DNA of 64,000 nt from an uncultured Oscillospiraceae bacterium (GCA_964429705.1 CAYSDG010000002.1:5520-69519), one strand, 5' to 3'. Shown: positions 9,871-24,210, counted from the stretch's first letter. The notes: generated from the letters alone by a model not told the origin. Translations and numbers: made by a program.

Positions 9871-9897
9871 GAGCGTGCGGCCTCCGCCGATCATAGC

Positions 9898-9950
9898 ATC
9901 CGCCCCATCCTGTCCGGTCTGCATCCGGGCAGTACGGGGCGGATATTTTT
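9898..9950 (+). terminator. Intrinsic terminator after the MATE gene
   Basis: ATCCGCCCC...GGGGCGGAT stem with an inner CCGG/CCGG helix, followed by ATTTTT. Confidence 0.55.
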
Positions 9951-9982
9951 CGTATACGCTTTCCGGCAAAGCACGCCACCTC

Positions 9983-10285
9983 TCAGGCGCGGCGCATCTC
10001 AGGCTCTTCCTGCCACAGCAGGCGGTCGGACACATAGCTGGTCAGCAGCAGGAAAAAGGCCGTCGGCCACAGCACGGACAAGGGGCCGCTGTATTGCCCC
10101 ACAGGGACGCCGCGGCATACCGTCAGGCGCAGCAGGCCATACAGCGCCAGCACCGCCGCGGACAGCTGCTGTGTCCGCAGGGCCAGAACTGTGTAAAGCT
10201 GGTCCCGGCGGCGGGAACGGCGGTTTTCCTCTAAGTAGGGGGTCAGGTCGATCACACGGGTCCTCTGCGTGGCGATGCGCTCCAT
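9983..10285 (-). CDS. Small hypothetical membrane protein (100 aa, two hydrophobic helices)
   Basis: Strong RBS AAAGGAGGA 6 nt upstream of ATG 10285. No recognisable family. Confidence 0.55.
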   Translation of the reverse strand: MERIATQRTRVIDLTPYLEENRRSRRRDQLYTVLALRTQQLSAAVLALYGLLRLTVCRGVPVGQYSGPLSVLWPTAFFLLLTSYVSDRLLWQEEPEMRRA

Positions 10286-10320
10286 AGGGCGTCCTCCTTT
10301 GGTGTTGGTTCTGACGATAT

Positions 10321-10387
10321 TATAATCGAATATCTGTACGAAAAACAGTACTGTCCCGATTTTTATTCGTACAAATTTTCGATTATA
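10321..10387. promoter_or_regulatory. Nested palindrome (operator candidate) in an AT-rich promoter region
   Basis: Arms TATAATCGAAtatctGTACGAA (10321-10342) and TTCGTACaaattTTCGATTATA (10366-10387) flank the perfect palindrome ACAGTACTGT (10345-10354). Confidence 0.4.
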
Positions 10388-10464
10388 GCTTTCAGATGCT
10401 TTATTCTAATCCACCAAAAGAGAAATTATACCTGCTGTATGCGCCCCCTCGCCAGGGCTGAACG

Positions 10465-10497
10465 CAAAAAACCCCCGCAGTCTTTCGACTGCGGGGG
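10465..10497 (-). terminator. Intrinsic terminator downstream of tRNA-Ser
   Basis: CCCCCGCAG-tcgaaaga-CTGCGGGGG followed by TTTTTT on the minus strand. Confidence 0.75.
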
Positions 10498-10499
10498 TA

Positions 10500-10591
10500 T
10501 GGCGGAGATGGAGAGATTCGAACTCTCGATACCCTTTTGGGGTATACACGATTTCCAATCGTGCGCGCTCGACCAGCTACGCGACATCTCC
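10500..10591 (-). tRNA. tRNA-Ser (anticodon GGA), CCA encoded
   Basis: Minus-strand cloverleaf GGAGATG...; anticodon stem-loop CACGA-TTGGAAA-TCGTG; long variable arm; T-arm GAGAGTTCGAATCTCTC; 3' end GCCA. Confidence 0.9.
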
Positions 10592-10646
10592 ACATAGTTG
10601 CTCGGCTCACAAAGCCTATTTAGTTGAACGCTCAACAGCAAGGATT

Positions 10647-10675
10647 AGTTTACACGCTTTTCCGTCAAAAGTCAA
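10647..10675 (-). promoter_or_regulatory. Sigma-70-type promoter for tRNA-Ser
   Basis: Minus strand reads TTGACT, a 17-nt spacer, then TAAACT. Confidence 0.5.
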
Positions 10676-10695
10676 TAGGTAATTTATCTTTTTTG

Positions 10696-10729
10696 AAAAA
10701 TTTTTAGACCCCGGCTTTTGCCGGGGTCT
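10696..10729 (-). terminator. Terminator-like hairpin after the small ORF
   Basis: AGACCCCGGC-aaaa-GCCGGGGTCT followed by an A/T run. Confidence 0.5.
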
Positions 10730-10745
10730 TCAGGCTGCGGACGGA

Positions 10746-10916
10746 CTAGCGATCCATGGTCCGCTGCACCGACGCGGCAGCGCTGTCCACCGCATCCGTG
10801 ACCGTCTGCATGGTCCGGCCCGCCCTGGTGCGCTTACCCTGAGCGGTGTGCAGCACCAGGTCCGCCGCTACACCAGCCACCACGCCCAGGGCCATGCCCT
10901 TGATGAATTCTGTCAT
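10746..10916 (-). CDS. Small protein (56 aa) with N-terminal hydrophobic helix, absent from the ORF track (below its length cutoff)
   Basis: Hand translation gives MTEFIKGMALGVVAGVAADLVLHTAQGKRTRAGRTMQTVTDAVDSAAASVQRTMDR. AGGAGGGGAA lies just upstream of the ATG and a hairpin follows the stop. Confidence 0.5.
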   Translation of the reverse strand: MTEFIKGMALGVVAGVAADLVLHTAQGKRTRAGRTMQTVTDAVDSAAASVQRTMDR

Positions 10917-11054
10917 GCACTTCCCCTCCTGTCTGCACTAGTATGGCCGACCGCAGGAAAAATACGCACGCCGGGTATCATTTCATTTGCCAAATGCTGA
11001 CGCGTCCTATATAATAGAAATATTATATACTATTTGAAGAAAGGGCGCTGCGCC

Positions 11055-12068
11055 ATGTCTACCAAAATTTACCTGATCCGCCACGCCGAGGCGGAGGGAA
11101 ACCTCTATCGGGTGGCCCACGGTCAGTACAACAGCACCATCACCCCCCGGGGCTATCAGCAGCTGCACCATCTGCGGGAGCGCTTCCGGGACATTCCCAT
11201 CGATGCGGTGTACGGCAGCGACCTGCTGCGGGCCCACACCACCGCCTCCGCCATCTATGTCCCCAAGGGGCTCTCCTTCCGCCCCATGCCCCTGCTGCGG
11301 GAGATCTGTCTGGGTATCTGGGAGCAGATGAGCTGGGGCGAGATCCTGCGGATGGACAGCGATATGTATGTCTACTTCAACAAGCGGCCCGACCTGTGGC
11401 ACGCCGAGGGCGCGGAGACCTTCGCCCAGGTCCGGGACCGGACGCTGGCGGGCATCCGTCAAATCGCGGCGGAGAACCCCGGCAAAACGGTAGCCGCCAC
11501 CAGCCACGGTGCCGCGCTGCGCACCCTGCTGGGTACTCTGCAGGGCATGAGTCTGGAGGAGCTGGGCGCCACCGGCCACGCTGACAACACCGCTGTCTCC
11601 CTGATCGAGGTGGAAGGCGACGATATCCGTGTCATCTTCCGGGATGACAACTCCCATGTCCCGCCGGAACTGTCCACCTTCCGCCGCCAGGGCTGGCACA
11701 AAAATGACGCTGCCACGGAGCCAGGACTCTGGTTCCAGACGGTCGGCGCGGACACCTCTGAAAAGGTGGTGACCGGTATGCTGGGCGAAGAGTCCGCCGG
11801 CCGCATAGTCTTCCGGCAGGACGGCGGTGCGCTGCGCATCACGGAGCTTTCGCTCCTCCCCGCCCTGCGTGGCCGCCGCTTCGGCGTACAGCTGCTGGGC
11901 CAGGCGGTACAGTATGCCCGCCGCCAGGGGCTGGAGGACCTGGTCCTCACCTGTCCGCAGGAGCTGGCCGGGTACTTTACGCAGTTTGGCTTTGTCAGGA
12001 CCGGCAGCAGCGCGGACAGCGCGGAGCTGAAGCTGGATCTGCGGCTGGTGATCCGGGAGATACCATAA
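11055..12068 (+). CDS. Histidine phosphatase (PGAM-like) fused to a C-terminal GNAT acetyltransferase domain
   Basis: IYLIRHAEAEGN (RHG catalytic motif) and TSHGAALR. The C-terminus carries the GNAT signature LRGRRFGVQLLGQAVQYARRQG. Confidence 0.8.
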   Translation: MSTKIYLIRHAEAEGNLYRVAHGQYNSTITPRGYQQLHHLRERFRDIPIDAVYGSDLLRAHTTASAIYVPKGLSFRPMPLLREICLGIWEQMSWGEILRMDSDMYVYFNKRPDLWHAEGAETFAQVRDRTLAGIRQIAAENPGKTVAATSHGAALRTLLGTLQGMSLEELGATGHADNTAVSLIEVEGDDIRVIFRDDNSHVPPELSTFRRQGWHKNDAATEPGLWFQTVGADTSEKVVTGMLGEESAGRIVFRQDGGALRITELSLLPALRGRRFGVQLLGQAVQYARRQGLEDLVLTCPQELAGYFTQFGFVRTGSSADSAELKLDLRLVIREIP

Positions 12069-12322
12069 GACCATCCCACTTCACTCGTATCCGATGAGGA
12101 ATTTTGTACCCCAGCGCATGTGACAATCCCGAGCCGCCGCGGTACGGTGTCAGACGTATCTCGCCCATCTTCACCTGCCGGCCCATGAACGCCGAGACAA
12201 ACAGACTTGTCAGATTTTGTCGCTGAATCGCATGGCAGCCCCCCATTTCGACAACTGTCCGTAATATCATATGCAATAACCCTATTTTGTAATCACTTTT
12301 ATCAGTGAAGAAAGAGAACACT

Positions 12323-14386
12323 ATGGATGTTTTAGATTTTCTCCCCGTCAGCAAGGAGGACATGGAAAACCGCGGCTGGTGGTACTATGATTTCCTGGTG
12401 GTCACCGCCGACGCCTACATCGACCACCCCAGCTTCGGCACCGCCATCATCGCCCGAGTGCTGGAAGCCGAGGGCTACCGGGTGGCCATTCTGGCGCAGC
12501 CCGACTGGCACAGCGCCGACGCCTTCCGCGCCATGGGCAAGCCCCGCTACGGCGTGATGATCGGCGGCGGCAACATCGACTCCATGGTGGCCCACTATAC
12601 CGCCGCCAAAAAGCGCCGCTCCACCGACGCCTACAGCCCCGGCAACAGGATGGGCCTGCGGCCTGACCGGCCCACCATCGTCTACGCCAACCGCGCCCGG
12701 GAGGCATTTCCCGATACCCCCATCATCATCGGCGGACTGGAGGCCAGTCTGCGCCGCTTCGCCCACTACGACTACTGGGACGACAAGGTCCGCCGCTCCA
12801 TCCTCTTTGATGCCCAGGCGGATCTGCTGGTCTACGGCATGGGTGAGCGGGCCGTCCGTGAGATCGCCCGGCGGCTGAGCCGGGGCGAGTCGGCGGACCA
12901 GCTCACCGACATCCGGGGCACCGCCTTCGCCGGCAAAAGCGGCGACTGCGCCTTCCCCCACGTCACCGTCCCCTCCTTTGAAAACGTGGTGGCAGACAAG
13001 CGCGACTACGCCGTAGCCACCAAGGTGGAATACGATGAGCACGACTGCATCCGCGGCAAGGCTATTCTGCAGCGCCACGGGGACCAGATCCTGGTGGTGA
13101 ATCCACCCCAGAAGCCTCTGAGCCGCCAGGAGCTGGACGAGGTAGCCGAGCTGCCCTATGCCCGGGAGGTCCACCCCATGTACGATGCTCTTGGCGGTGT
13201 GGCCGCCATCGAGGAGGTCCGCTTCTCTGTGGCCCACAACCGCGGCTGCTTCGGCGGGTGTAACTTCTGCTCCCTGGCCTTCCATCAGGGCCGGATGATC
13301 ACCTCCCGCAGCCACGAGAGCGTGATCCGGGAGGTGGAGGGCTTCACCCGCGACCCCCACTTCAAAGGCTATGTTCACGACGTGGGCGGCCCCAGTGCCA
13401 ACTTCCGCCACCCCAGCTGCCAGCAGCAGCTGAAAAACGGCATGTGCAAGAACCGCTCCTGCCTGGCCCCCACGCCCTGCAAGAATCTGGACCCCGACCA
13501 CAGCGACTATCTGGCTCTGCTGCGAAAGGTCCGGGCTGTCCCCGGGGTGAAGAAGGTCTTTATCCGCAGCGGCATCCGGTACGACTACATGCTATGCGAA
13601 AAGAACAGCGAATTCTTCTCCGATCTGGTGAAGTACCACATCTCCGGTCAGCTGAAGGTGGCCCCGGAGCACTGCTCCAGCCAGGTGCTGGACTACATGG
13701 GCAAGCCCCACTTCGATGTGTATGAAAAATTCCTGGACAAGTATTACCGCCTGAACCAGCGCTATGGGCTGGACCAGTATGTGGTGCCCTACCTCATGAG
13801 CAGTCACCCCGGCTGTACGCTGAACGACGCGGTGGACCTGGCGGTATTTCTGAACAAGACGGGCCGCCAGCCGGAGCAGGTCCAGGACTTCTACCCCACA
13901 CCCGGTACCCTCTCCACCTGCATGTGGTACACGGAGATCGACCCCCGGACCATGGAGCCGGTCTATGTGGCCAAGTCGCCCCATGACAAGGCCCTGCAGC
14001 GGGCGCTGCTGCAGTGGAAGCGGCCGGAGATGCGCCGTCTGGTCACTGAGGCTCTCCACCGGGCGGGCCGCACAGACCTGATCGGCTACAGCAAGGAGTG
14101 CCTGATCCGTCCTCTCCACAGCGGCGAACGGGCCGAGGGCCAGGACCGCAGCGGCAAGAGCAGCCCCAAGAGCGGCTCCCGGAGCAGTAAGGCTCCCGCC
14201 CGCGGCGGCAAGCCCACTGCCAAAGGCAGCAAAGCCGCGGAGGACACCCGCCGCACCGCCAAGGGGCGCGGCCAGGAGCGGGGCAAAACCGCCGCCAGAC
14301 CCGAAAAGCCTGCCCGCAAGCCCAACAGCCCCACCCACTCCAAACAGCAGCAGCGCAGCAAAGCCGCCAAGGATCGCCGCCGCTGA
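12323..14386 (+). CDS. ygiQ: YgiQ-family (UPF0313) radical SAM protein with a long Lys/Arg-rich C-terminal tail
   Basis: N-terminus YDFLVVTADAYIDHPSFGTAIIARVLEAEGYRVAILAQPDW and radical SAM motif GCFGGCNFCS. The last ~95 aa are basic and low-complexity. An alternative GTG start exists at 12305. Confidence 0.9.
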   Translation: MDVLDFLPVSKEDMENRGWWYYDFLVVTADAYIDHPSFGTAIIARVLEAEGYRVAILAQPDWHSADAFRAMGKPRYGVMIGGGNIDSMVAHYTAAKKRRSTDAYSPGNRMGLRPDRPTIVYANRAREAFPDTPIIIGGLEASLRRFAHYDYWDDKVRRSILFDAQADLLVYGMGERAVREIARRLSRGESADQLTDIRGTAFAGKSGDCAFPHVTVPSFENVVADKRDYAVATKVEYDEHDCIRGKAILQRHGDQILVVNPPQKPLSRQELDEVAELPYAREVHPMYDALGGVAAIEEVRFSVAHNRGCFGGCNFCSLAFHQGRMITSRSHESVIREVEGFTRDPHFKGYVHDVGGPSANFRHPSCQQQLKNGMCKNRSCLAPTPCKNLDPDHSDYLALLRKVRAVPGVKKVFIRSGIRYDYMLCEKNSEFFSDLVKYHISGQLKVAPEHCSSQVLDYMGKPHFDVYEKFLDKYYRLNQRYGLDQYVVPYLMSSHPGCTLNDAVDLAVFLNKTGRQPEQVQDFYPTPGTLSTCMWYTEIDPRTMEPVYVAKSPHDKALQRALLQWKRPEMRRLVTEALHRAGRTDLIGYSKECLIRPLHSGERAEGQDRSGKSSPKSGSRSSKAPARGGKPTAKGSKAAEDTRRTAKGRGQERGKTAARPEKPARKPNSPTHSKQQQRSKAAKDRRR

Positions 14387-14437
14387 ACGCCGCTTTCCCC
14401 GCACATAAATTTTTGCGTTTTAAAGTAACAAAGGGTC

Positions 14438-14466
14438 TTGACAAACCGAAAAAACGGGTGTAAAGT
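14438..14466 (+). promoter_or_regulatory. Promoter of T-box leader (copy A)
   Basis: TTGACA, 17-nt spacer, TAAAGT. Confidence 0.55.
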
Positions 14467-14472
14467 GCAAGC

Positions 14473-14765
14473 AAGTGAATAAGAAAAGCGATGACGAAGA
14501 CGGACGAGAAGGTTCTGCTCGCAGAGAGCCGGGGATGGTGGGATCCCGGCAGCAAGAGGTCTCAAGGTCCCATCCCTTCCGAGCTGGAGATCCAAACACC
14601 CATTCGGGCCAGTAGATGTCTCCCGTGACTGCCGCGTTAGCGCATAGGACTTGCTAGAGTCCGAGAGGGGTGTCCCTTGTGGGCGCAATTTGAGTGGTAC
14701 CGCGGGTACATAAAAGATTTTATGACTCGTCTCAAGAAGAAATTCTTGAGACGAGTTTTTCTTTT
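14473..14765 (+). promoter_or_regulatory. T-box riboswitch leader, copy A (inside the duplication)
   Basis: K-turn GCGATGAC.../...CGAGC, AG bulge AGAGAG, distal loop GATGGTGGGAT. T-box sequence AATTTGAGTGGTACCGCGGG at 14687-14706. Terminator ACTCGTCTCAAGAA/TTCTTGAGACGAGT plus T-run at 14725-14765. Confidence 0.85.
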
Positions 14766-14817
14766 CACTCAAAACAGTCTTTTCTCATTCGCCAGACTTT
14801 CTTACGGAGGTAACAAG

Positions 14818-15312
14818 ATGGATACCAAACATGTCAACAATCAACTGGCGGAGATCGCCTTCCGTATCCGCGAGATGCGGGACATCTGCGGCTTCACCAT
14901 GGCCGAAATGGCCCAGAAGACTGACACTACCCCGTCCGAGTACAAGACCTATGAGGCCGGGCAGGCAGATCTCCCCTTCTCCTTCCTGCACAAGTGCGCC
15001 CTGGCCTTCGGCATCGGCATCACAGCGGCGAACGGGCCGAGGGCCAGGACCGCAGCGGCAAGAGCAGCCCCAAGAGCGGCTCCCGGAGCAGTAAGGCTCC
15101 CGCCCGCGGCGGCAAGCCCACTGCCAAAGGCAGCAAAGCCGCGGAGGACACCCGCCGCACCGCCAAGGGGCGCGGCCAGGAGCGGGGCAAAACCGCCGCC
15201 AGACCCGAAAAGCCTGCCCGCAAGCCCAACAGCCCCACCCACTCCAAACAGCAGCAGCGCAGCAAAGCCGCCAAGGATCGCCGCCGCTGAACGCCGCTTT
15301 CCCCGCACATAA
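14818..15312 (+). pseudogene. Chimeric truncated ORF created by the duplication: first 69 aa (XRE HTH) of the downstream fusion gene joined out of frame to ygiQ 3' sequence
   Basis: Residues 1-69 are identical to the gene starting at 15722. After the junction at 15021 the frame reads an Ala/Pro/Arg-rich tail through duplicated ygiQ DNA. Confidence 0.7.
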
Positions 15313-15341
15313 ATTTTTGCGTTTTAAAGTAACAAAGGGTC

Positions 15342-15370
15342 TTGACAAACCGAAAAAACGGGTGTAAAGT
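15342..15370 (+). promoter_or_regulatory. Promoter of T-box leader (copy B)
   Basis: Identical to 14438-14466. Confidence 0.55.
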
Positions 15371-15376
15371 GCAAGC

Positions 15377-15669
15377 AAGTGAATAAGAAAAGCGATGACG
15401 AAGACGGACGAGAAGGTTCTGCTCGCAGAGAGCCGGGGATGGTGGGATCCCGGCAGCAAGAGGTCTCAAGGTCCCATCCCTTCCGAGCTGGAGATCCAAA
15501 CACCCATTCGGGCCAGTAGATGTCTCCCGTGACTGCCGCGTTAGCGCATAGGACTTGCTAGAGTCCGAGAGGGGTGTCCCTTGTGGGCGCAATTTGAGTG
15601 GTACCGCGGGTACATAAAAGATTTTATGACTCGTCTCAAGAAGAAATTCTTGAGACGAGTTTTTCTTTT
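15377..15669 (+). promoter_or_regulatory. T-box riboswitch leader, copy B (in front of the intact gene)
   Basis: Identical to copy A. T-box sequence at 15591-15610 and terminator at 15629-15669. Confidence 0.85.
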
Positions 15670-15721
15670 CACTCAAAACAGTCTTTTCTCATTCGCCAGA
15701 CTTTCTTACGGAGGTAACAAG

Positions 15722-17992
15722 ATGGATACCAAACATGTCAACAATCAACTGGCGGAGATCGCCTTCCGTATCCGCGAGATGCGGGACATCTGCGGCTTCA
15801 CCATGGCCGAAATGGCCCAGAAGACTGACACTACCCCGTCCGAGTACAAGACCTATGAGGCCGGGCAGGCAGATCTCCCCTTCTCCTTCCTGCACAAGTG
15901 CGCCCTGGCCTTCGGCATCGGCATCACCGATCTGCTGGAGGGCACCAGCGCCAAGCTGACCAGCTACACCGTCACCCGCAAGGGGCAGGGGCAGCAGACC
16001 GCCAAGGAGCCGGGCATCGAGATCAGCAACCTGGCCCCCCAGTTCCGCAACAAGCTGGCAGAACCCTACTATGTTACCTATGACTACGACGAGAGCCAGC
16101 AGCACATGCCCATCCATCTCACCACCCACTCCGGCCAGGAGTTCGACATCGTCCTTTCCGGTCAGCTGAAGGTCCAGGTGGGCAACAATGTGGAGATCCT
16201 CAGCGAGGGCGACAGCATCCTCTATAACTCCTCCACCCCCCACGGCATGATCGCCGTCGGCGGTGAGAAGTGTGTGTTCTGCGCTGTGGTCATCTCCGGC
16301 GAGAAGACCAGCGAGGCCACCGTCCGTGAAAACCTGGTGCAGGGCAGCCGCAGCGAAAAGTATGTCTGCAGCCCCTTCATCAACGCGGTGGAGGATGAGA
16401 AGGGCGTTTTGCAGTCCCTCACCTTCCCCAACGCCGACAAGTTCAACTTCGCCTTCGACTGTGTGGATGCCATCGCCGAGAAGTATCCCGAGAAGCTGGC
16501 CATGGTGCATCTGGACAAAAACAAGGTGGAGCGCCGCTTTACCTTTACCGATATGGCGCGGGAGTCCAGCCGTGCCGCCAACTACTTCAAGACCCTGGGC
16601 ATCAAAAAGGGCGACCGGGTGATGCTGGTGCTGAAGCGGCACTACCAGTTCTGGTTTGCCATCCTGGGGCTGCACAAGCTGGGGGCTATCGCCATCCCCG
16701 CCACCAATCAGCTCCAGGAGAAAGATTTCACCTACCGCTTCAACGCCGCTCAGGTCAGCGCCATCCTCTGCACTGCCGACGGAAATGTGGCCCGTCAGGT
16801 GGAGCTGGCGGAGAAGGACAGCCCCTCCCTGGTCACCAAGATCCTGGTGGGCGGCAGCCGGGATGGCTGGTATGACTTCGACCAGGAGGTACAGCGCTTC
16901 CGCAGCAAGTTCGACCGCACTGCCGATGCCCCCTGCGGCGAGGACCTGATGCTGATGTTCTTCACCAGCGGCACCACCGGCTATCCCAAGATCGCCGCCC
17001 ACAACTACAAGTACGCGCTGGGCCACTACATCACCGCCAAGTACTGGCACTGTGTCCATGCCGACGGCCTGCACTTCACCATCAGCGAGACCGGCTGGGG
17101 CAAGGCCCTGTGGGGCAAGCTGTACGGCCAGTGGCTGTGCGAGGGCGCTGTGTTCACCTATGATTTTGACCGCTTCGACGCCGCCGACATTCTCCCCATG
17201 TTCGCCCGCTACCACATCACCACCTTCTGTGCGCCTCCCACCATGTACCGGATGCTCATCAAGCAGGATCTCAGCAAGTATGACCTCAGCTCCATCCAGC
17301 ACGCCACCACCGCAGGTGAGGCCCTGAACCCCGAGGTCTTCCGCCAGTTCGAGGCACAGACCGGTCTGCAGATCTATGAGGGCTTCGGCCAGACCGAGAC
17401 CACCCTCACCGTGGGCAACCTCATCGGCAACAAGCAGAAGATTGGCTCCATGGGCAAGCCCATCCCCACCTACGACCTGGTCCTGGTGGACGGCGACGGC
17501 AACGAGGTCAAGCGCGGTGAAAACGGCGAGATCTGCATCCGTGTTCCCGAGGGCAACGCCCCCTGCGGCCTGTTCCACGGCTATTACCGGGACGAGGCCC
17601 AGACCCTGGAGGTCTACCACGACGGGCTCTATCACACCCGCGATGTGGCCTGGCAGGACGAGGACGGCTACCTCTGGTATGTGGGCCGGGCCGACGACGT
17701 GATCAAGTCCTCCGGCTACCGCATCGGGCCCTTCGAGATCGAATCCGTCATCATGGAGCTGCCCTATGTGCTGGAGTGCGGCGTCAGCGCCGCGCCGGAC
17801 GAGGTCCGCGGCCAGGTGGTCAAGGCCAGCATCGTGCTGGTCCCGGGTACCGAGGGCACGGACGAGCTGAAGAAGGAGATCCAGGAGTACGTCAAAAAGC
17901 GCACCGCCCCCTACAAGTACCCCCGTATCGTGGTCTTCCGGGACGAGCTGCCCAAGACCATCAGCGGCAAGATCCAGCGCAACAAGCTGTAA
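15722..17992 (+). CDS. XRE-HTH + cupin + AMP-forming acyl-CoA synthetase (medium/short-chain, ACSM/MbcS-like) fusion, paralog 1
   Basis: HTH in aa 1-70 and cupin (HSGQEFDIVLSGQLKVQVG...STPHGM). Adenylation motifs FFTSGTTGYPK, GFGQTET, YHTRDVAWQDEDGYLWYVGRADDVIKSSGYRIGPFEIES and PKTISGKIQRNKL. RBS GGAGG upstream of ATG 15722. Confidence 0.85.
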   Translation: MDTKHVNNQLAEIAFRIREMRDICGFTMAEMAQKTDTTPSEYKTYEAGQADLPFSFLHKCALAFGIGITDLLEGTSAKLTSYTVTRKGQGQQTAKEPGIEISNLAPQFRNKLAEPYYVTYDYDESQQHMPIHLTTHSGQEFDIVLSGQLKVQVGNNVEILSEGDSILYNSSTPHGMIAVGGEKCVFCAVVISGEKTSEATVRENLVQGSRSEKYVCSPFINAVEDEKGVLQSLTFPNADKFNFAFDCVDAIAEKYPEKLAMVHLDKNKVERRFTFTDMARESSRAANYFKTLGIKKGDRVMLVLKRHYQFWFAILGLHKLGAIAIPATNQLQEKDFTYRFNAAQVSAILCTADGNVARQVELAEKDSPSLVTKILVGGSRDGWYDFDQEVQRFRSKFDRTADAPCGEDLMLMFFTSGTTGYPKIAAHNYKYALGHYITAKYWHCVHADGLHFTISETGWGKALWGKLYGQWLCEGAVFTYDFDRFDAADILPMFARYHITTFCAPPTMYRMLIKQDLSKYDLSSIQHATTAGEALNPEVFRQFEAQTGLQIYEGFGQTETTLTVGNLIGNKQKIGSMGKPIPTYDLVLVDGDGNEVKRGENGEICIRVPEGNAPCGLFHGYYRDEAQTLEVYHDGLYHTRDVAWQDEDGYLWYVGRADDVIKSSGYRIGPFEIESVIMELPYVLECGVSAAPDEVRGQVVKASIVLVPGTEGTDELKKEIQEYVKKRTAPYKYPRIVVFRDELPKTISGKIQRNKL

Positions 17993-18000
17993 AGACCGCT

Positions 18001-18048
18001 CCACCCCGCAAAAGCGCATGCCGCACAGGCTGCGCTTTCGCGGGGTGG
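18001..18048 (+). terminator. Hairpin after paralog 1 (possible terminator, no clear T-run)
   Basis: CCACCCCGCAAAAGCGCA-loop-TGCGCTTTCGCGGGGTGG. Confidence 0.4.
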
Positions 18049-18097
18049 GCCGTCACCGATACAGCGAATTCCCCCTTTAAATAACTAAAAAATCATC

Positions 18098-18126
18098 TTG
18101 CTTTTTCCCATCGGATATGGTAATAT
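18098..18126 (+). promoter_or_regulatory. Promoter of the second T-box leader
   Basis: TTGCTT, 17-nt spacer, TAATAT. Confidence 0.5.
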
Positions 18127-18132
18127 GGTGCC

Positions 18133-18412
18133 AATTTAATAGCAAAGGCTGTGACGGAGAGGGCTCCGGGAATGCTTTTCAGAGAACCGGCGGTTGGTGT
18201 GAGCCGGAAAAGCGGAACCGTTTGCTTGTAGCTCCTGAGCCGGAGGGAAGAAACCGTCCGCCGGAAGTAGAACCCTCTCGTGATTGCCGCGTAAGAGCAT
18301 ATGGCTTGCTGGAGCCTGATGAGTGGCGCAGAGATGCGCAATTTGAGTGGTACCGCGGGTATGGAATACTCGTCTCAAAGATTACGATATCTTTGGGGCG
18401 AGTTTTGTTTTT
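18133..18412 (+). promoter_or_regulatory. T-box riboswitch leader 2
   Basis: K-turn GGCTGTGAC.../...CTGAGCC, AG bulge CAGAGAA, distal loop GGTTGGTGTGA. T-box sequence AATTTGAGTGGTACCGCGGG at 18340-18359. Terminator ACTCGTCTCAAAG/CTTTGGGGCGAGT plus TTTGTTTTT at 18368-18412. Confidence 0.85.
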
Positions 18413-18445
18413 CCCCAAAGGGATGCAAGCAGGAGGAGACCGCAT

Positions 18446-20737
18446 ATGAATCAGAAAATGACTGCCGGACTGGATCTGAAGCTGCTGGAGATCGCCGGGC
18501 GCATCCGGGATCTGCGGGAGATCGTTGGTCTGAGCGAGGAGGAGATGGCCCGGCGCACCGGTGTCACCCTGGCGGAATACCGCCAGTGCGAGGCCGCCGA
18601 GAGCGACCTGAACTTCGCCTTTATCTACCGCTGCGCCCAGGCCTTCGGCGTGGATGTCACCGACATCATCGAAGGCGCCAGCCCCCGGCTGAGCAATTAC
18701 ACCCTTACCCGCGCCGGAGAGGGCCAGCACATCGAGCAGGCCCACGGCATGACCTACTACAACATGGCTGCCCGCTTCAAAAAACGCGTGGCAGAGCCTC
18801 TGTACGTGGTGGCGGAGTACAGCGATGAGGCCCAGCTGCGCCCCATCGACGTGACCACCCACTCCGGACAGGAGTGCGACATCGTCCTCTCCGGCCAGCT
18901 GAAGGTCCAGGTGGGTGAGCACACGGAGATTTTGAATCCCGGCGACATCATCTACTATAATTCCACTGCCCCCCACGGCATGATCGCCACCGGCGGAAAG
19001 GACTGCGTCTTCTACGCCATCGTCCTCAACGGCGACGGCGAGGAGACCGCCCCCCAGAAGGAGCCGGCCCCCGCCCCCCGTCTCCAAAAGCCCGCCGAGC
19101 AGCGGGAGGAGCGGATCTGGGAGCAGTTTATCACCGTGGAGGAGAGTCCCGACGGCTCTCTGAAAAAGATCGACTTCAAGGACCCCGACCACTTTAACTT
19201 TGCCTTTGACGTGGTGGACGGCCTGGCCCGGCGCAAGCCCGACAAGCTGGCCATGGTCCACGTGGACCGCAACAAGGAGGAGCGCTTCTTCACCTTTGCC
19301 GATATGAGCCGCTACTCCAGCAAGGCCGCCAACTACTTCCAGTCCCTTGGCATCAAGCGGGGCGACCGGGTGCTGCTGATCCTGAAGCGGCACTATCAGT
19401 TCTGGTTCGCCATCCTGGGCCTGCATAAGCTGGGCGCTGTGGCGCTGCTGGCCAGCAATCAGATGCTGACCCACGACCTGGAATACCGCTATGAGGCCGC
19501 CGGGATCAGCGCCGTCATCTGTACCTCCAACGGAGAGGTCTCCCGCCACGCCGAGGCCGCCGCGGAAAAGTTCCCCGGCATGACCAAGATCATGGTGGAT
19601 GGCTGCCGGGAGGGCTGGCATGATTTTGACAACGAGTTCCGCATGTTCTCTGAGGATTTCATCCGCACCAAGGACGCCCCCTGCGGCGAGGACCTGATGC
19701 TGATGTTCTTCACCAGCGGCACCACCGGCTTCCCCAAGGCCGCTGCTCACTGCTACAAGTACCCCCTGGGCCACTTTATCACCGCCAGATACTGGCACTG
19801 CGTGGACCCCGACGGCCTGCACCTGACCATCTCCGACACCGGCTGGGCCAAGAGCATGTGGGGCAAGCTGTACGGCCAGTGGCTGAACGAGGCCGCCGTC
19901 TTCGTCTATGACTTCGACCGCTTCGATGCCGCCGACATCCTCCCCATGTTCGCCAAGCACCACATCACCACCTTCTGTGCGCCCCCCACCATGTACCGGA
20001 TGCTCATCAAGCAGGACATCAGCAAATACGACCTCAGCTCCATCCAGCACGCCACCATCGCAGGCGAGGCCCTGAACCCCGAGGTGTTCCACCAGTTCAA
20101 GAAGGCCACCGGTCTGAGCCTGATGGAGGGCTTTGGCCAGAGCGAGACCACCGTGATGATCGGCAACCTCATCGGCATGAGTCCCAAGATCGGCTCCATG
20201 GGCAAGCCCGTCCCCCTGTATCCTGTGGATCTGGTGGACAGCGACGGCAACAGTGTGCCGGACGGCCAGGTGGGTGAGATCGTCATCCGCGCCGACAAGA
20301 CCGACATCTGCGGCCTGTTCCGCGGCTACTATAACAACAGCGACAGTACCGATGCCGCCTGGCACGATGGCGTGTACCACACCGGTGACACCGCCTGGCG
20401 GGATGAGGACGGCTACTTCTGGTATGTTGGCCGGGTGGACGACCTCATCAAGTCCAGCGGCTACCGTATCGGGCCCTTTGAGATCGAATCCGTCATCATG
20501 GAGCTGCCCTACGTGCTGGAGTGCGGCGTCAGTGCCGCGCCGGACGAGGTCCGCGGCCAGGTGGTCAAGGCCAGTATCGTGCTGGTTCCCGGCACCGAGG
20601 GCACCGAGGAGCTGAAAAAGGAGATCCAGAACTACGTCAAGCAGCATACCGCGCCCTATAAATATCCCCGGATCATCGTCTTCCGGGACGAGCTGCCCAA
20701 GACGGTGAGCGGTAAGATCATTCGCAACAAACTGTGA
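18446..20737 (+). CDS. XRE-HTH + cupin + AMP-forming acyl-CoA synthetase fusion, paralog 2
   Basis: Same three-domain layout as 15722-17992: FFTSGTTGFPK, GFGQSET, YHTGDTAWRDEDGYFWYVGRVDDLIKSSGYRIGPFEIES, PKTVSGKIIRNKL. RBS AGGAGGAG upstream. Confidence 0.85.
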   Translation: MNQKMTAGLDLKLLEIAGRIRDLREIVGLSEEEMARRTGVTLAEYRQCEAAESDLNFAFIYRCAQAFGVDVTDIIEGASPRLSNYTLTRAGEGQHIEQAHGMTYYNMAARFKKRVAEPLYVVAEYSDEAQLRPIDVTTHSGQECDIVLSGQLKVQVGEHTEILNPGDIIYYNSTAPHGMIATGGKDCVFYAIVLNGDGEETAPQKEPAPAPRLQKPAEQREERIWEQFITVEESPDGSLKKIDFKDPDHFNFAFDVVDGLARRKPDKLAMVHVDRNKEERFFTFADMSRYSSKAANYFQSLGIKRGDRVLLILKRHYQFWFAILGLHKLGAVALLASNQMLTHDLEYRYEAAGISAVICTSNGEVSRHAEAAAEKFPGMTKIMVDGCREGWHDFDNEFRMFSEDFIRTKDAPCGEDLMLMFFTSGTTGFPKAAAHCYKYPLGHFITARYWHCVDPDGLHLTISDTGWAKSMWGKLYGQWLNEAAVFVYDFDRFDAADILPMFAKHHITTFCAPPTMYRMLIKQDISKYDLSSIQHATIAGEALNPEVFHQFKKATGLSLMEGFGQSETTVMIGNLIGMSPKIGSMGKPVPLYPVDLVDSDGNSVPDGQVGEIVIRADKTDICGLFRGYYNNSDSTDAAWHDGVYHTGDTAWRDEDGYFWYVGRVDDLIKSSGYRIGPFEIESVIMELPYVLECGVSAAPDEVRGQVVKASIVLVPGTEGTEELKKEIQNYVKQHTAPYKYPRIIVFRDELPKTVSGKIIRNKL

Positions 20738-20765
20738 GTTTCTGTTGGCCGACCGCGGTGGAAGG

Positions 20766-20791
20766 GTGTTCCGCGCCGGAGCGCGGAACAC
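20766..20791 (+). other. GC-rich hairpin between paralog 2 and the ATPase gene (weak terminator or processing site)
   Basis: GTGTTCCGCGC-cgga-GCGCGGAACAC followed by TCTTAAAAG. Confidence 0.35.
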
Positions 20792-20857
20792 TCTTAAAAG
20801 ACTATCGCCCAGATACCAACAATCGACTTTTACTCTTGAAAAAGAAAAGAGGTCACT

Positions 20858-21568
20858 ATGGACCACAAACGCATCACCCTCTTCGCCGGACACTACGGCT
20901 CCGGCAAAACCAACATCGCCGTCAACTACGCCCTCCATCTGGCACATCTGGGCAAACAGGTGGCCATCGCCGACCTGGACATCGTCAATCCCTACTTCCG
21001 CACCAAGGACAGCGCCCAGGAGCTGGCGGCGGCAGGCGTCGACCTGATCTCCCCCCAGTTTGCCAACAGCAATGTGGACCTTCCCGCCCTTCCGGCGGAG
21101 GCCTATCGTCTGGTGGAGAACCGCAGTCTCTTCTCCGTCATGGACATCGGCGGCGATGATCGGGGCGCCTACGCCCTGGGCCGCTATACGCCCTTTATCA
21201 AGGCGGAGAACAACTATCGGATGGCCTTTGTGGCCAACTGCTACCGCCCCCTGACCCGCACCCCGGCAGACGCGCTGGAGGTCATGCGGGAGATCGAGCT
21301 GGCCTGCGACCTCCCCTTTACCGACCTGGTCAACAACGCCAATCTGGCCCACGAGACTACCGCCCAGTCGGTACTGGACTCTCTGGACTTTATGGCGGAG
21401 TTGAGTCAGCTGAGCGGGCTGCCCATCTGGATGACCGCCGCAGAGGAGGCTGTGGCCTCTCAGCTGGCAGGGCAGATCGATGATCTGCTCCCCATGCAGC
21501 TGCAGGCAAAATACTTCGATCTGCCGGAGCAGCGCCGCGCCCCCGCGCCCCGCCCCATATTCGGGTAA
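20858..21568 (+). CDS. P-loop NTPase of the MinD/ParA/CooC-like (SIMIBI) type, function unknown
   Basis: N-terminal Walker A FAGHYGSGKTNIAVNYA and IADLDIVNPYF. No DNA-binding or membrane segment is seen. Confidence 0.65.
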   Translation: MDHKRITLFAGHYGSGKTNIAVNYALHLAHLGKQVAIADLDIVNPYFRTKDSAQELAAAGVDLISPQFANSNVDLPALPAEAYRLVENRSLFSVMDIGGDDRGAYALGRYTPFIKAENNYRMAFVANCYRPLTRTPADALEVMREIELACDLPFTDLVNNANLAHETTAQSVLDSLDFMAELSQLSGLPIWMTAAEEAVASQLAGQIDDLLPMQLQAKYFDLPEQRRAPAPRPIFG

Positions 21569-21631
21569 GACCGCCGGGCAGCTATCACTACGTTTATCCA
21601 TTCCATTTAGATATAAGAAGGAGGAATCCCC

Positions 21632-21849: not shown

Positions 21850-22911
21850 ATGGCAGAGAGAGTTTTGATGAAGGGCAATGAAGCCATTGCCGAAGCCGCC
21901 ATCCGGGCCGGCTGCCGCCACTATTTTGGCTATCCCATCACCCCCCAGACGGAGGTTGCCGCCTATATGGCCAAGAAGCTTCCCAAGATCGGCGGCGTAT
22001 TCCTGCAGGCGGAGAGTGAGATCGCATCCATCAACATGGTCTACGGCGCTGCCGCCACCGGCACCCGCGTGATGACCTCCTCCTCCAGCCCCGGAATCAG
22101 CCTGATGAGCGAGGGCCTCAGCTATATCGCCGGCTCCGACGTTCCCGCCTTTGTGGTGAACGTTCAGCGCGGCGGCCCCGGTCTGGGCGGTATCCAGCCC
22201 AGCCAGAGCGACTATTTCCAGGCCACCAAGGGCGGCGGGCACGGCGACTACCGCATGATCGTGCTGGCTCCCGCCTCCGTACAGGAGATGGCCAGCCTGA
22301 CTATCAAGGGTCTCAACCTGGCGGACAAATACCTGATGACCAGCATGATCCTGGCTGACGGCACCATCGGCCAGATGATGGAGCCCATCTCCTTCGAGGA
22401 CGCCGAGATCGAGACCTATGACAAACCCTGGGCGCTCACCGGCACCAATATGGAGCGCAAGCACAACATCGTCAACTCCCTGTACCTGAAGCCCGACGAG
22501 CTGGAGGCCAAGAACTTCGAGCGCTATGAGCGCTATCGTCTGGTAGAGGAAAACGAACCCATGTGGGAGGAGTACATGATGGAGGATGCCGAATACTGTG
22601 TGGTAGCCTTCGGCATCGCCGCCCGCGTGGCCAAGAACGCCGTGGTTGCCGCCCGCAGCGAGGGCATCAAGGTGGGCATGATCCGCCCCATCACCCTGTG
22701 GCCCTTCCCCAAGAAGGCCCTGCGCGCCGCTGCCGACCAGGTGAAATCCTTCATCTCTGTTGAGCTGAGCATGGGTCAAATGATCGAGGACATCCGCCTG
22801 GCCACCGAGTGCAAAAAGCCCGTCAGTCTCTGCAACCGGGCGGGCGGCATGATCCCCAGCCCCGAGCAGGTGCTGGAGAGCATCCGCAAGGCACAGAAAG
22901 GAGAGAACTGA
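21850..22911 (+). CDS. 2-oxoacid:ferredoxin oxidoreductase alpha subunit (VOR/KOR type)
   Basis: MKGNEAIAEAAIRAGCRHYFGYPITPQTE N-terminus typical of the family. Operon context. Confidence 0.9.
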   Translation: MAERVLMKGNEAIAEAAIRAGCRHYFGYPITPQTEVAAYMAKKLPKIGGVFLQAESEIASINMVYGAAATGTRVMTSSSSPGISLMSEGLSYIAGSDVPAFVVNVQRGGPGLGGIQPSQSDYFQATKGGGHGDYRMIVLAPASVQEMASLTIKGLNLADKYLMTSMILADGTIGQMMEPISFEDAEIETYDKPWALTGTNMERKHNIVNSLYLKPDELEAKNFERYERYRLVEENEPMWEEYMMEDAEYCVVAFGIAARVAKNAVVAARSEGIKVGMIRPITLWPFPKKALRAAADQVKSFISVELSMGQMIEDIRLATECKKPVSLCNRAGGMIPSPEQVLESIRKAQKGEN

Positions 22912-22912
22912 T

Positions 22913-23674
22913 ATGGCCATCGTTTTTCAGAAGCCCCACGCACTGACTGACGCAGTGCTGCACTATTGCCCCGGCTGCCCCCACGGCATCATCCACCGCC
23001 TGGTGGCTGAAGCTATCGACGATCTGGGCATCGAGGGCAAGGCCATCGGCGTGGCCCCCGTCGGCTGCGCGGTGATGGCTTACGACTACTTCACCTGCGA
23101 CATGATCGAGGCCGCCCACGGCCGCGCTCCCGCCACCGCCACCGGCATCAAGCGCTGCCGCCCCGACAACATCGTGTTCACCTATCAGGGCGACGGCGAT
23201 CTGGCCTCCATCGGTATGGCAGAGACGGTCCACGCCGCAGCCCGCAATGAGAACATCACCATCATCTTCGTCAACAACGCCATCTACGGCATGACCGGCG
23301 GCCAGATGGCCCCCACCAGCCTCCCCGGTCAGGTCACCCAGACCAGCCCCTACGGCCGTGATGTCAAGCACTGCGGCTGGCCCATCCGGGTCTGCGAGAT
23401 GCTCTCCACGCTGGAGGGTCCCGAGTATGTGGCCCGCGTGGCAGTGAACAACGTCAAGAACGTCAATGCCGCCAAGAAGGCCATCAAGAAGGCTTTCCAG
23501 AACCAGGTGGAGGGCAAGGGTTTCTCCCTGATCGAGGTCGTTTCCGCCTGTCCCACCAACTGGGGTATGACCCCCCAGCAGGCACTGGAGTGGGTGGAGA
23601 GCGATATGATCCCCTACTACCCCCTGGGCGTCTACAAGGACCGGACCGATGCAAAGGAGGCTGAGGCAAAATGA
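22913..23674 (+). CDS. 2-oxoacid:ferredoxin oxidoreductase beta subunit (TPP-binding)
   Basis: YCPGCPHG Cys motif and TPP motif GDGDLASIGMAE...NNAIYGMTGGQ. Confidence 0.9.
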   Translation: MAIVFQKPHALTDAVLHYCPGCPHGIIHRLVAEAIDDLGIEGKAIGVAPVGCAVMAYDYFTCDMIEAAHGRAPATATGIKRCRPDNIVFTYQGDGDLASIGMAETVHAAARNENITIIFVNNAIYGMTGGQMAPTSLPGQVTQTSPYGRDVKHCGWPIRVCEMLSTLEGPEYVARVAVNNVKNVNAAKKAIKKAFQNQVEGKGFSLIEVVSACPTNWGMTPQQALEWVESDMIPYYPLGVYKDRTDAKEAEAK

Positions 23675-24210
23675 AAACGACACAGATCCTGATCGCTGGC
23701 TTTGGCGGCCAGGGCATCCTGTTCGCCGGCAAGTTCCTGGCCTACAAGGGCCTTCTGGAGGACCTGCAGGTCTCCTGGCTGCCCAGCTACGGCCCCGAGA
23801 TGCGCGGCGGCACCGCCAACTGCAATGTCATCCTTTCCGACGATCCCGTGGGCTCCCCCATCGTCACCAGCCCCGACGTACTCATCGCCATGAACCTGCC
23901 CAGCCTGCAGAAATACGTGGACACCGTGGTACCCGGCGGCCAGATCTATGTGGACTCCACCCTCATCGCCGAGAAGGTGACACGTACCGATGTGGAGGTC
24001 TACTACATCCCCGCCACCGCCATGGCCAAGGAGGCGGGTGTCAGCACCCTGGCCAACATGATCATCATGGGCCACCTGCTGCAGAACAACAACCAGCTGT
24101 CCTTCGAGGGCGCGCAGGTCACCGTGGAGAAGCTGGTCCCCGCCAAAAAGCAGGAGCTGGTTGGCCTGAACATGAAGGCACTGGAAGCAGGCCGCGACTA
24201 TAAGGGCTGA
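23671..24210 (+). CDS. 2-oxoacid:ferredoxin oxidoreductase gamma subunit
   Basis: [18 protein letters not shown]-terminus. Its start overlaps the beta-subunit stop by 4 nt. Confidence 0.9.

What the first reader, a model, noticed from the sequence alone, without database searches (positions are those of the whole stretch)
14117..15924. Perfect 904-bp tandem duplication spanning the ygiQ 3' end, a complete promoter plus T-box leader, and the first 69 codons of the next gene
Seen in sequence:
- 14117-15020 and 15021-15924 appear identical, and every overlapping track ORF recurs with a 904-nt offset and an identical translation.
- All three boundaries share the trinucleotide CAC (14117, 15021, 15925). 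This suggests microhomology-mediated duplication rather than transposition, and no IS or inverted repeats flank it.
- Zero divergence means a very recent event, a heterogeneous population, or an assembly artefact.

The consequences are two identical T-box-controlled promoters in series and a new chimeric ORF.
Basis: seen in the sequence. Interest (0 to 1): 0.65.

Follow-up and report, generated by a model that had tools for sequence, protein, structure and literature searches.

The report
Private exact 904-base tandem duplication
A 904-base stretch holding a promoter, an isoleucine-sensing T-box RNA switch and the start of an acyl-CoA synthetase gene occurs twice, head to tail and letter-perfect, in this assembly only; gut metagenomes carrying the same clone have it once, so it is either a very recent duplication or an assembly error, and either way ordinary in kind.

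Summary
Window 14117-15020 and 15021-15924 are identical (904 nt, 0 mismatches), and CAC sits at all three boundaries.

The unit holds:
- the last 89 codons of ygiQ;
- a TTGACA-17-TAAAGT promoter-like site;
- a T-box leader with a conserved AUC (Ile) specifier and its terminator;
- the first 69 codons of an HTH-cupin-acyl-CoA-synthetase gene.

Both flanking genes stay intact. A 164-aa chimeric ORF is created.

Sister species have one copy. Five gut metagenomes from one study carry the same clone (0-7 SNPs per 20 kb). In all five, every contig that reaches a unit boundary runs on into the single-copy flank, and none crosses the junction. No indexed public run holds junction-specific 31-mers. 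The reads behind this assembly could not be found, so real versus artefact stays open.

I lean towards a real, private, very recent microhomology-associated duplication (about 0.55). An untrimmed-overlap or contig-join artefact is about 0.37. Neither is novel in kind.

The better biology lies beside it. A cassette conserved across gut Clostridia pairs an Ile T-box and a Val T-box with two MbcS-like acyl-CoA synthetase paralogs. In this window it sits next to a 2-oxoacid:ferredoxin oxidoreductase.

The parts
14117..15020 (+). Copy 1 of the 904-nt unit
   Evidence: Identical to 15021-15924, 0 mismatches
15021..15924 (+). Copy 2 of the 904-nt unit
   Evidence: Identical to 14117-15020
15925..15927 (+). 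Third CAC: 3-nt microhomology (also at 14117-14119 and 15021-15023)
   Evidence: Right extension of the periodic run is 3 nt; chance P(>=3 nt) is about 0.06-0.07
12305..14386 (+). ygiQ (YgiQ-family radical SAM protein), intact. Probable start is ATG 12323; the unit begins at codon 605, at the start of its Lys/Arg/Ser-rich tail
   Evidence: TIGR03904 854.6 bits; Pfam Radical_SAM_N and DUF3362. The 687-aa product from 12323 is called on the Logan contig L081
15021..15290 (+). Duplicated 3' fragment of ygiQ (89 codons plus stop), with no start or promoter of its own
   Evidence: Copy of 14117-14386
14438..14466 (+). Promoter-like site P1: TTGACA, 17 nt, TAAAGT
   Evidence: 10 of 12 consensus matches; 2 sites found against 0.4 expected. 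The -35 box and much of the -10 box are conserved in six orthologous leaders
15342..15370 (+). Promoter-like site P2 (copy of P1), serving the intact gene
14482..14737 (+). T-box leader 1. Specifier AUC (Ile) at 14572-14574; T-box sequence AATTTGAGTGGTACCGCGGG at 14687-14706
   Evidence: RF00230 69.1 bits, E 4.9e-15. CCYATC[A/C/G]CTTC recurs across orthologous leaders, 67 of 71 of which carry the T-box motif
15386..15641 (+). T-box leader 2 (copy). Specifier AUC at 15476-15478; T-box sequence at 15591-15610
   Evidence: Identical copy
14724..14767 (+). Intrinsic terminator of leader 1: 15-pair stem, then TTTCTTTT. Its 5' arm overlaps the antiterminator 3' strand
   Evidence: (I1)
15628..15671 (+). 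Intrinsic terminator of leader 2 (copy)
14818..15312 (+). Chimeric ORF, 164 aa. Residues 1-69 are the HTH_XRE domain of the synthetase gene; residues 70-164 are the ygiQ tail read out of frame (Ala/Pro/Arg-rich). GGAGG lies 8 nt upstream
   Evidence: No gene with this product is on record anywhere
15722..17992 (+). Intact gene 1: HTH_XRE + cupin + AMP-binding acyl-CoA synthetase, 756 aa
   Evidence: Pfam. Best NCBIfam hit is MbcS at 430 bits, below the cut-off of 850
18142..18380 (+). Context: T-box leader of paralog gene 2; specifier GUA (Val) at 18228-18230
   Evidence: RF00230 78.7 bits, E 1.8e-17. TTGTAG/TTGTAA/TTGTCA + CTYC recurs in the second leaders of related loci
18446..20737 (+). 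Context: paralog gene 2 (HTH + cupin + acyl-CoA synthetase), not duplicated
21850..24210 (+). Context: three subunits of a 2-oxoacid:ferredoxin oxidoreductase (POR_N/PFOR_II, TPP_enzyme_C, POR gamma)

Best explanation
A real, private and very recent tandem duplication in the DNA that was sequenced. In a single-copy ancestor (ygiQ, promoter, Ile T-box leader, synthetase gene), a replication template switch or illegitimate recombination between two CAC triplets 904 nt apart copied the interval head to tail. One triplet lies at ygiQ codon 605 and the other at codon 69 of the synthetase gene. No gene is broken. ygiQ keeps its full 3' end in copy 1, and the synthetase keeps its own promoter, leader and 5' end in copy 2, so the event is close to neutral. 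It adds two things. The first is an upstream promoter plus Ile T-box whose read-through transcripts must pass a second identical T-box terminator before reaching the enzyme gene. From this I infer up to twice the induced expression with little extra leak, i.e. a steeper response to uncharged tRNA-Ile. The second is a 164-aa ORF under Ile control that encodes a nearly complete stand-alone HTH domain fused to a disordered Ala/Pro/Arg tail. Because 904-nt direct repeats collapse readily by homologous recombination, zero divergence and restriction to one sample are what such an event should look like. Shown: the sequence anatomy, the single-copy state of relatives, and the T-box identity with its Ile specifier. 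Inferred: the mechanism of formation, that the junction exists in the source DNA, and all expression consequences.
For: The copies are exact and are the only long repeat in the window. A 3-nt microhomology sits at all three boundaries, with a chance probability of 0.06-0.07. By contrast, about 70-75% of strain-specific tandem duplications in 1.5 million microbial genomes carry microhomology arms, and about half have arms longer than 3 bp (bioRxiv 10.64898/2026.02.28.708716). The single-copy allele, with CAC at both ends of the interval, is present in the same clone in metagenomes X1, X2, X3, X4 and X44, in the more distant strains X5, X6 and X8, and in sister species L045. The ancestral state and the two recombining sites are therefore observed directly. 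No IS, transposase or long flanking repeat is present. The window is otherwise base-perfect against Illumina-derived contigs: 0-1 SNP per 20 kb against X2, X3 and X44, with no indels and no other joints. The assembly is therefore not sloppy. By my knowledge of de Bruijn-graph and long-read assemblers (no tool result), a 904-nt unit is normally written twice only when junction reads exist. Both flanking genes remain intact, so a neutral event could persist.
Against: No read-level support could be obtained. No indexed public run holds junction-specific 31-mers. Only 1 of the 4 sampled words was found, and it is the non-diagnostic one that overlaps CAC. The junction is absent from JGI metagenome contigs, and the chimeric protein is on record nowhere. 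Five metagenomes with the same clone are all single-copy, with no contig crossing 15020/15021. Three nt of homology is within chance range and far below the 11 nt or more of experimentally verified spontaneous duplications in Salmonella (PMC3411829). Perfect identity is also exactly what an assembly artefact produces.
Confidence: 0.55

Rival explanations
1. Assembly artefact. There are two routes. A circular contig whose start and end overlapped by 904 nt was not trimmed and was then rotated. Or two contigs overlapping by 904 nt were joined end to end without merging the overlap. Either writes the overlap twice, letter-perfect, at an arbitrary place. The genome has one copy.
For: Divergence is zero. 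Every independent data set holding this clone is single-copy, and none holds the junction. The 904-nt skip is the only structural difference from those data sets in 40 kb. The boundaries fall inside two coding regions with no biological logic, and the unit length is not a multiple of 3. Start/end overlap that duplicates sequence is a documented failure of several long-read assemblers: Canu and NextDenovo leave thousands of bases, and Redbean and Shasta are erratic (PMC6966772).
Against: Artefact boundaries should be arbitrary, yet the junction has 3 nt of homology (chance 0.06-0.07). The documented overlaps are usually several kb and scale with read length, so 904 nt is short. There are no Ns or other signs of a scaffold join. 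The rest of the window is error-free against independent contigs.
Confidence: 0.37
2. The duplication is real and was selected, so it is an adaptive regulatory change rather than a neutral accident. Possible benefits are stronger or steeper Ile-starvation induction of the synthetase through two promoters and two T-boxes in series, or a trans-acting stand-alone HTH peptide.
For: The unit contains exactly one complete promoter, leader, terminator and RBS module plus a nearly whole HTH domain (Pfam HTH_3 residues 16-67 of the chimera). Tandem T-box leaders exist naturally and tighten control (my knowledge of the T-box literature, not tested here).
Against: The duplication is absent from all five same-clone metagenomes and from all relatives, so there is no sign of spread. 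The enzyme gene itself is not amplified. The tail of the chimera is out-of-frame low-complexity sequence. A single instance gives no evidence of selection.
Confidence: 0.06
3. The duplication was made by a mobile element or by homologous recombination between pre-existing long repeats.
For: None found.
Against: No inverted repeats, target-site-duplication pattern or transposase ORFs lie in or beside the unit. No repeat longer than 3 nt lies at the boundaries. The single-copy allele shows only CAC at both sites.
Confidence: 0.01

Closest known systems
Microhomology-mediated (short-junction, RecA-independent) tandem duplications in bacteria
   Same: Head-to-tail exact copies. A short identical motif lies at the start of the unit and just after it. 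The single-copy allele with both motifs is present in relatives. The duplication is strain-specific, with no IS involved (bioRxiv 10.64898/2026.02.28.708716; bioRxiv 10.64898/2026.05.22.727201).
   Different: Only 3 nt of homology, at the weak end of the range; verified Salmonella cases had 11 nt or more (PMC3411829). The duplication is not confirmed in reads.
Start/end-overlap duplication in circular contigs from long-read assemblers
   Same: A perfectly identical sequence written twice in tandem at an arbitrary genomic position once the contig has been rotated (PMC6966772).
   Different: Typical overlaps are thousands of bases or tens of bases, not about 900. Whether this assembly was circularised or rotated is unknown.
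Natural tandem T-box leaders (two or three leaders in series before one gene in some Firmicutes; from my own knowledge of the T-box literature)
   Same: A transcript from the upstream promoter has to pass two T-box terminators that sense the same tRNA before it reaches the gene.
   Different: Here the two leaders are 904 nt apart, separated by a translated 164-codon ORF and a second promoter. They are identical copies rather than diverged, fixed elements.
MbcS, the methylbutyryl-CoA synthetase of Staphylococcus aureus (PMC10026030)
   Same: It is the best-scoring NCBIfam model for the synthetase domain of both paralogs (430 and 434 bits). MbcS activates 2-methylbutyrate and isobutyrate, the carbon skeletons of Ile and Val, which match the two T-box specifiers found here.
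   Different: The score is far below the equivalog cut-off of 850. The proteins here carry an extra N-terminal HTH_XRE plus cupin module, are T-box controlled, and sit next to a 2-oxoacid:ferredoxin oxidoreductase. That context suggests amino-acid synthesis rather than fatty-acid priming. The substrate has not been tested.

Membership tests
Microhomology-mediated tandem duplication | Two adjacent, directly repeated, (near-)identical copies | tested here: met
   904 nt, 0 mismatches, head to tail
Microhomology-mediated tandem duplication | A short identical motif at the unit start, at the junction and just after the second copy, longer than chance | tested here: inconclusive
   CAC appears three times, but homology of 3 nt or more arises in 6-7% of random 904-nt duplications of this window
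Microhomology-mediated tandem duplication | A single-copy allele with both microhomology arms exists in close relatives | tested here: met
   Single contigs in X1, X5 and X6 go left flank, unit, right flank. X2, X3, X4, X8 and X44 cross both outer boundaries. L045 is syntenic and single-copy
Microhomology-mediated tandem duplication | No long flanking repeats or mobile element that could mediate homologous or transpositional duplication | tested here: met
Microhomology-mediated tandem duplication | Junction supported by reads of the sequenced DNA, with about twice the depth over the unit | not testable with these tools
   The source reads were not found. No indexed run holds junction words
Assembly start/end-overlap or contig-join artefact | The junction coincides with an original contig end or rotation point, and no read spans it | not testable with these tools
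   The assembly history and reads are not available. Indirectly, independent data sets from the same clone lack the junction
T-box leader (Rfam RF00230) | Score at or above Rfam's gathering threshold (93 bits) | tested here: not met
   69.1 bits (E 4.9e-15) for the duplicated leader and 78.7 bits for the paralog's. Neither was reported at the gathering threshold
T-box leader (Rfam RF00230) | Conserved T-box sequence with UGGN to pair with the tRNA acceptor end | tested here: met
   AATTTGAGTGGTACCGCGGG lies at 14687 and 15591. GAGTGGTACCGCG (rarely GGGTGG... or ...ACCACG) occurs in 67 of 71 orthologous upstream regions
T-box leader (Rfam RF00230) | Stem I with GA/K-turn base, AGAGA bulge, GGTG distal loop, and a specifier loop presenting a codon just before the closing helix | tested here: met
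   The full-length model alignment covers positions 1-219. TGACGAAG...AGAGAG...GGTG...ATC[A/C]CTTC[CT]GAGC is conserved, with AUC recurring throughout
T-box leader (Rfam RF00230) | Mutually exclusive antiterminator and intrinsic terminator | tested here: met
   A 15-pair terminator plus T run lies at 14724-14767. Its 5' arm (CTCGTCTCA) is the 3' strand of the antiterminator in the Rfam alignment
T-box leader (Rfam RF00230) | Binding of uncharged tRNA-Ile causes read-through | not testable with these tools
   Needs in vitro transcription or reporter assays
YgiQ-family radical SAM protein (TIGR03904) | Score above the equivalog cut-off over the full model | tested here: met
   854.6 bits against a cut-off of 462; model positions 1-558
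MbcS acyl-CoA synthetase (NF047394) | Score above the equivalog cut-off (850 bits) | tested here: not met
   430.5 and 433.8 bits. Treated as MbcS-like only, not filed as MbcS

The most novel reading that the evidence does not exclude
The duplication is real and retained because it is useful. It would then be a caught-in-the-act origin of a two-stage T-box control circuit: two promoters and two identical Ile-sensing leaders in series before one enzyme gene, plus a new Ile-regulated stand-alone HTH peptide. That would show how the tandem T-box leaders of Firmicutes arise from a single microhomology-mediated step.
Probability: 0.07. Interest if true: 0.5.

Novelty: new member of a known kind. 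Interest (0 to 1): 0.22.

Why it matters
If the duplication is real, it is one more example of the strain-private tandem duplications that feed bacterial evolution. Its one attraction is that it copies a whole promoter-riboswitch module without breaking either neighbouring gene, which is a plausible first step towards tandem T-box leaders. If it is an artefact, the assembly should be corrected, because annotation would otherwise report a false chimeric HTH protein and a false ygiQ fragment. Either way the practical consequence is small. What was found beside it has more lasting value. Across gut and rumen Clostridia, an Ile T-box and a Val T-box each control an MbcS-like acyl-CoA synthetase fused to an HTH-cupin module. 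In this window the pair is followed by a 2-oxoacid:ferredoxin oxidoreductase. This points to starvation-induced salvage of 2-methylbutyrate and isobutyrate into isoleucine and valine.

Tried and rejected
- Tandem Repeats Finder found nothing, because its longest period is 500. The exact comparison and the repeat finder settled the point instead.
- The Rfam gathering-threshold scan of the whole window missed all three T-box leaders. E-value scans of the short regions found them.
- Exact-protein look-ups gave nothing for the chimeric ORF, the intact synthetase or the paralog. The ygiQ product led only to the X44 Logan contig. The window's own genome is therefore not in that collection.
- The junction 34-mer is absent from JGI metagenome contigs.
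- A 60-nt junction query to the run index returned runs holding 1 of 4 sampled words. This looked like support at first. Laying X32, X34, X13 and X27 showed only the conserved right-boundary word, which overlaps CAC and is not diagnostic.
- A NANOPORE-filtered run search returned nothing, so no long reads could be laid.
- The genome-contig scan did not return the window's own species; the best hit was 85% amino-acid identity. Sister-strain comparison therefore had to come from metagenome contigs.
- IS or transposon origin was rejected.
- I looked for a T-box before the oxidoreductase genes at 20700-21900 and found none.
- Literature searches for a described T-box and branched-chain acyl-CoA synthetase link found nothing in the open library.


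Full report
**1. Observation**

Window 14117-15020 and 15021-15924 are identical over 904 nt with no mismatch. The periodic run extends 3 nt further to the right (CAC at 15925-15927) and not at all to the left (repeat finder family D1). A k-mer scan of the whole window finds no other long exact repeat. The only others of 40 nt or more are a 55-nt and a 41-nt match between the two synthetase paralogs. Tandem Repeats Finder reports nothing because its longest period is 500. The window has no N and is 61% G+C.

**2. Anatomy of the unit**

- The unit starts at codon 605 of ygiQ, where the conserved protein gives way to a Lys/Arg/Ser-rich tail. The gene spans 12305/12323-14386 and scores 854.6 bits against TIGR03904.
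- After the ygiQ stop comes a promoter-like site, TTGACA-17-TAAAGT, at 14438-14466.
- A T-box leader follows at 14482-14737. It aligns to the full length of RF00230 at 69.1 bits (E 4.9e-15), below Rfam's gathering score of 93. That is why the whole-window scan missed it.
- The leader has the T-box sequence AATTTGAGTGGTACCGCGGG and a 15-pair terminator with a T run at 14724-14767. The terminator's 5' arm is the 3' strand of the antiterminator.
- A GGAGG precedes the ATG at 14818. The unit ends after 69 codons of a 756-aa gene (intact copy 15722-17992) made of HTH_XRE, cupin and AMP-binding domains.
- Because 904 is not a multiple of 3, the first copy of those 69 codons runs into the second copy of the ygiQ tail out of frame. 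This gives a 164-aa chimeric ORF (14818-15312) whose last 95 residues are Ala/Pro/Arg-rich.
- ygiQ (in copy 1) and the synthetase gene with its own promoter and leader (in copy 2) both remain intact.
- No inverted repeats, transposase genes or longer boundary repeats are present.

**3. What the leader senses**

The six closest orthologous leaders keep ...TCCYATCCCTTC... invariant. Of 71 related loci with enough upstream DNA, 67 have the T-box motif. The codon-bearing stretch reads CCYATC[A/C/G]CTTC[CT]GAGC throughout, that is AUC followed by one base and then the helix that closes on GAAG. I therefore read the specifier as AUC (Ile), at 14572-14574 and 15476-15478. The UGGU in the T-box bulge fits a tRNA with discriminator A; this last point rests on my knowledge of T-box rules and was not tested.

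**4. Relatives**

The window's own species is not among the genome representatives searched; the best hits are Oscillospiraceae MAGs at 83-85% amino-acid identity. In L045 the order ygiQ, leader, gene is kept, with one copy.

Five gut metagenomes of one study (X1, X2, X3, X4, X44) carry the same clone as the window.
- X44 has 0 SNPs and X1 has 7 over 5001-25000.
- Over 25001-45000, X2 and X3 have 0, X44 has 1 and X1 has 2.
- There are no indels. The only joint in 40 kb is a skip of exactly 904 nt, from 14116 to 15021, in a 2192-nt X1 contig.
- The X44 contig L081 equals window 11245-14561 exactly.

When only the junction region (14821-15220) was offered, the result in X44, X1, X2 and X3 was uniform. 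Every contig reaching the end of the unit left at 15023 into the right flank (CGATCTGCTGG...). Every contig reaching the start of the unit came from the left flank (...CCGTCCTCTC). None crossed 15020/15021. X4 likewise crosses both outer boundaries with no junction contig.

More distant strains agree. X5 and X6 have single contigs that are single-copy, and X8 crosses both outer boundaries. In a de Bruijn graph a tandem duplication would force a branch at both unit boundaries. Unbroken contigs across them therefore mean that the junction is absent, or too rare to survive graph cleaning, in these samples. That step is my inference about how the contigs were built.

**5. Search for the junction elsewhere**

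A 60-nt query in which 27 of 30 words are junction-specific found no run holding more than 1 of its 4 sampled words. Laying four of those runs showed that the word they hold is the conserved right-boundary word overlapping CAC, which is not diagnostic. The junction is absent from JGI metagenome contigs, and the chimeric protein is on record nowhere. A search limited to Nanopore libraries returned nothing. The reads behind this assembly were therefore not available, and the decisive test (junction reads and depth) could not be run.

**6. Real or artefact**

For a real event:
- The junction has 3 nt of homology, which random 904-nt duplications of this window reach in 6-7% of trials.
- A survey of strain-specific tandem duplications found microhomology arms in about 70-75% of cases, with arms longer than 3 bp in about half.
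- The assembly is otherwise letter-perfect against independent data.
- To my knowledge, most assembly routes only write a 904-nt unit twice if junction reads exist.

For an artefact:
- Identity is perfect.
- The duplication is absent from every independent sample of the same clone.
- Start/end overlaps that duplicate sequence in circular contigs are a documented failure. After rotation such an overlap becomes internal.
- Three nt is well within chance, and experimentally verified spontaneous duplications in Salmonella had 11 nt or more.

I put a real, private, recent duplication at about 0.55, with a further 0.06 for real and selected. I put an artefact at about 0.37, and a mobile-element or long-repeat origin at about 0.01.

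**7. Consequences if real (inferred)**

Transcripts from the upstream promoter must pass leader 1, translate or traverse the chimeric ORF, and then pass leader 2. The native promoter still serves the gene through leader 2 alone. If read-through probability is a, output scales as a + a². That is nearly unchanged when isoleucine is plentiful and up to doubled when tRNA-Ile is uncharged. The chimeric ORF would give an Ile-regulated HTH domain (Pfam HTH_3 residues 16-67) with a disordered tail, and its activity is unknown. Direct repeats of 904 nt should be lost by homologous recombination, which fits zero divergence and private occurrence.

**8. Comparison with what is known**

The kind of event, a microhomology-associated tandem duplication, is well described. 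So is the rival artefact. Natural tandem T-box leaders are the nearest functional analogue, but there the leaders are adjacent, diverged and fixed. This is a new instance of a known kind, of low interest unless it is shown to be selected.

**9. Beside the finding**

- The paralog downstream (18446-20737) has its own T-box (18142-18380, 78.7 bits).
- Its specifier stretch is TTGTAG-CTCC. In related loci it reads TTGTAG, TTGTAA or TTGTCA before CTYC, that is GUA or GUC, which encode Val.
- Of 80 related loci, 56 carry two or more T-box motifs; in the pairs printed, the second lies about 2.6 kb after the first.
- The best NCBIfam model for both enzymes is MbcS (430 and 434 bits, below the cut-off).
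- MbcS is the S. aureus enzyme that activates 2-methylbutyrate and isobutyrate (PMC10026030).
- Directly downstream lie three subunits of a 2-oxoacid:ferredoxin oxidoreductase (21850-24210).

Together this suggests starvation-induced activation of the branched short-chain acids, followed by reductive carboxylation to the Ile and Val keto acids. I found no description of this link in the open literature searched.

Noticed in passing
window 15386-24210; loci L001-L080: A conserved cassette. An Ile-specific T-box (AUC) precedes an HTH_XRE-cupin-acyl-CoA-synthetase gene. A Val-specific T-box (GUA/GUC) precedes a paralog about 2.6 kb downstream. In the window, three 2-oxoacid:ferredoxin oxidoreductase subunits follow. 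67 of 71 related loci have the first T-box, and 56 of 80 have two or more T-box motifs. The loci span Oscillospiraceae, Acutalibacteraceae, Christensenellaceae and Ruminococcus MAGs. The best enzyme model is MbcS (2-methylbutyrate/isobutyrate-CoA ligase), below its cut-off. This suggests Ile/Val-starvation-induced salvage of branched short-chain acids by reductive carboxylation. I found no description in the open literature searched.
   Followed up: partly
window 14482-14737, 15386-15641, 18142-18380: All three T-box leaders score 69-79 bits, below Rfam's gathering score of 93. They are invisible in a standard gathering-threshold scan although their E-values are 1e-15 to 1e-17. This leader clade is probably under-annotated in gut Clostridia.
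   Followed up: partly
window 16928-16982 = 19676-19730; 17789-17829 = 20534-20574: Exact 55-nt and 41-nt matches between the two synthetase paralogs, which are otherwise about 77% identical at the DNA level. They may be gene-conversion tracts or strongly constrained motifs.
   Followed up: no
window 14117-14386 (ygiQ codons 605-693): YgiQ carries an 89-residue Lys/Arg/Ser/Ala-rich C-terminal tail beyond the TIGR03904 model. DNA homology to the L045 orthologue stops at window position 14119, within 3 nt of the left boundary of the duplication.
   Followed up: no
window 45235-45453 (-) and 45604-45795 (+): Two cobalamin riboswitches (72.7 and 84.1 bits) face away from each other across a 150-nt gap, presumably controlling divergent B12-related operons.
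   Followed up: no
window 28998-32903 (+): A 1301-aa protein with six BspA-type leucine-rich repeat regions (LRR_5, 349 bits), probably a surface or adhesion protein.
   Followed up: no
window 11034-12068 (+): A fusion of a histidine-phosphatase (His_Phos_1) domain and a GNAT acetyltransferase domain, just upstream of ygiQ.
   Followed up: no
window 10503-10591 (-): An 89-nt tRNA with a long variable arm (56.8 bits). The anticodon loop reads UUGGAAA, so it is probably tRNA-Ser(GGA).
   Followed up: no
runs X1, X2, X3, X4, X44 against window 5001-45000: Five gut metagenomes of one 2024 study hold a strain with 0-7 SNPs per 20 kb relative to the window, and no indels. The window's genome therefore belongs to a clone circulating in that cohort or host population.
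   Followed up: partly
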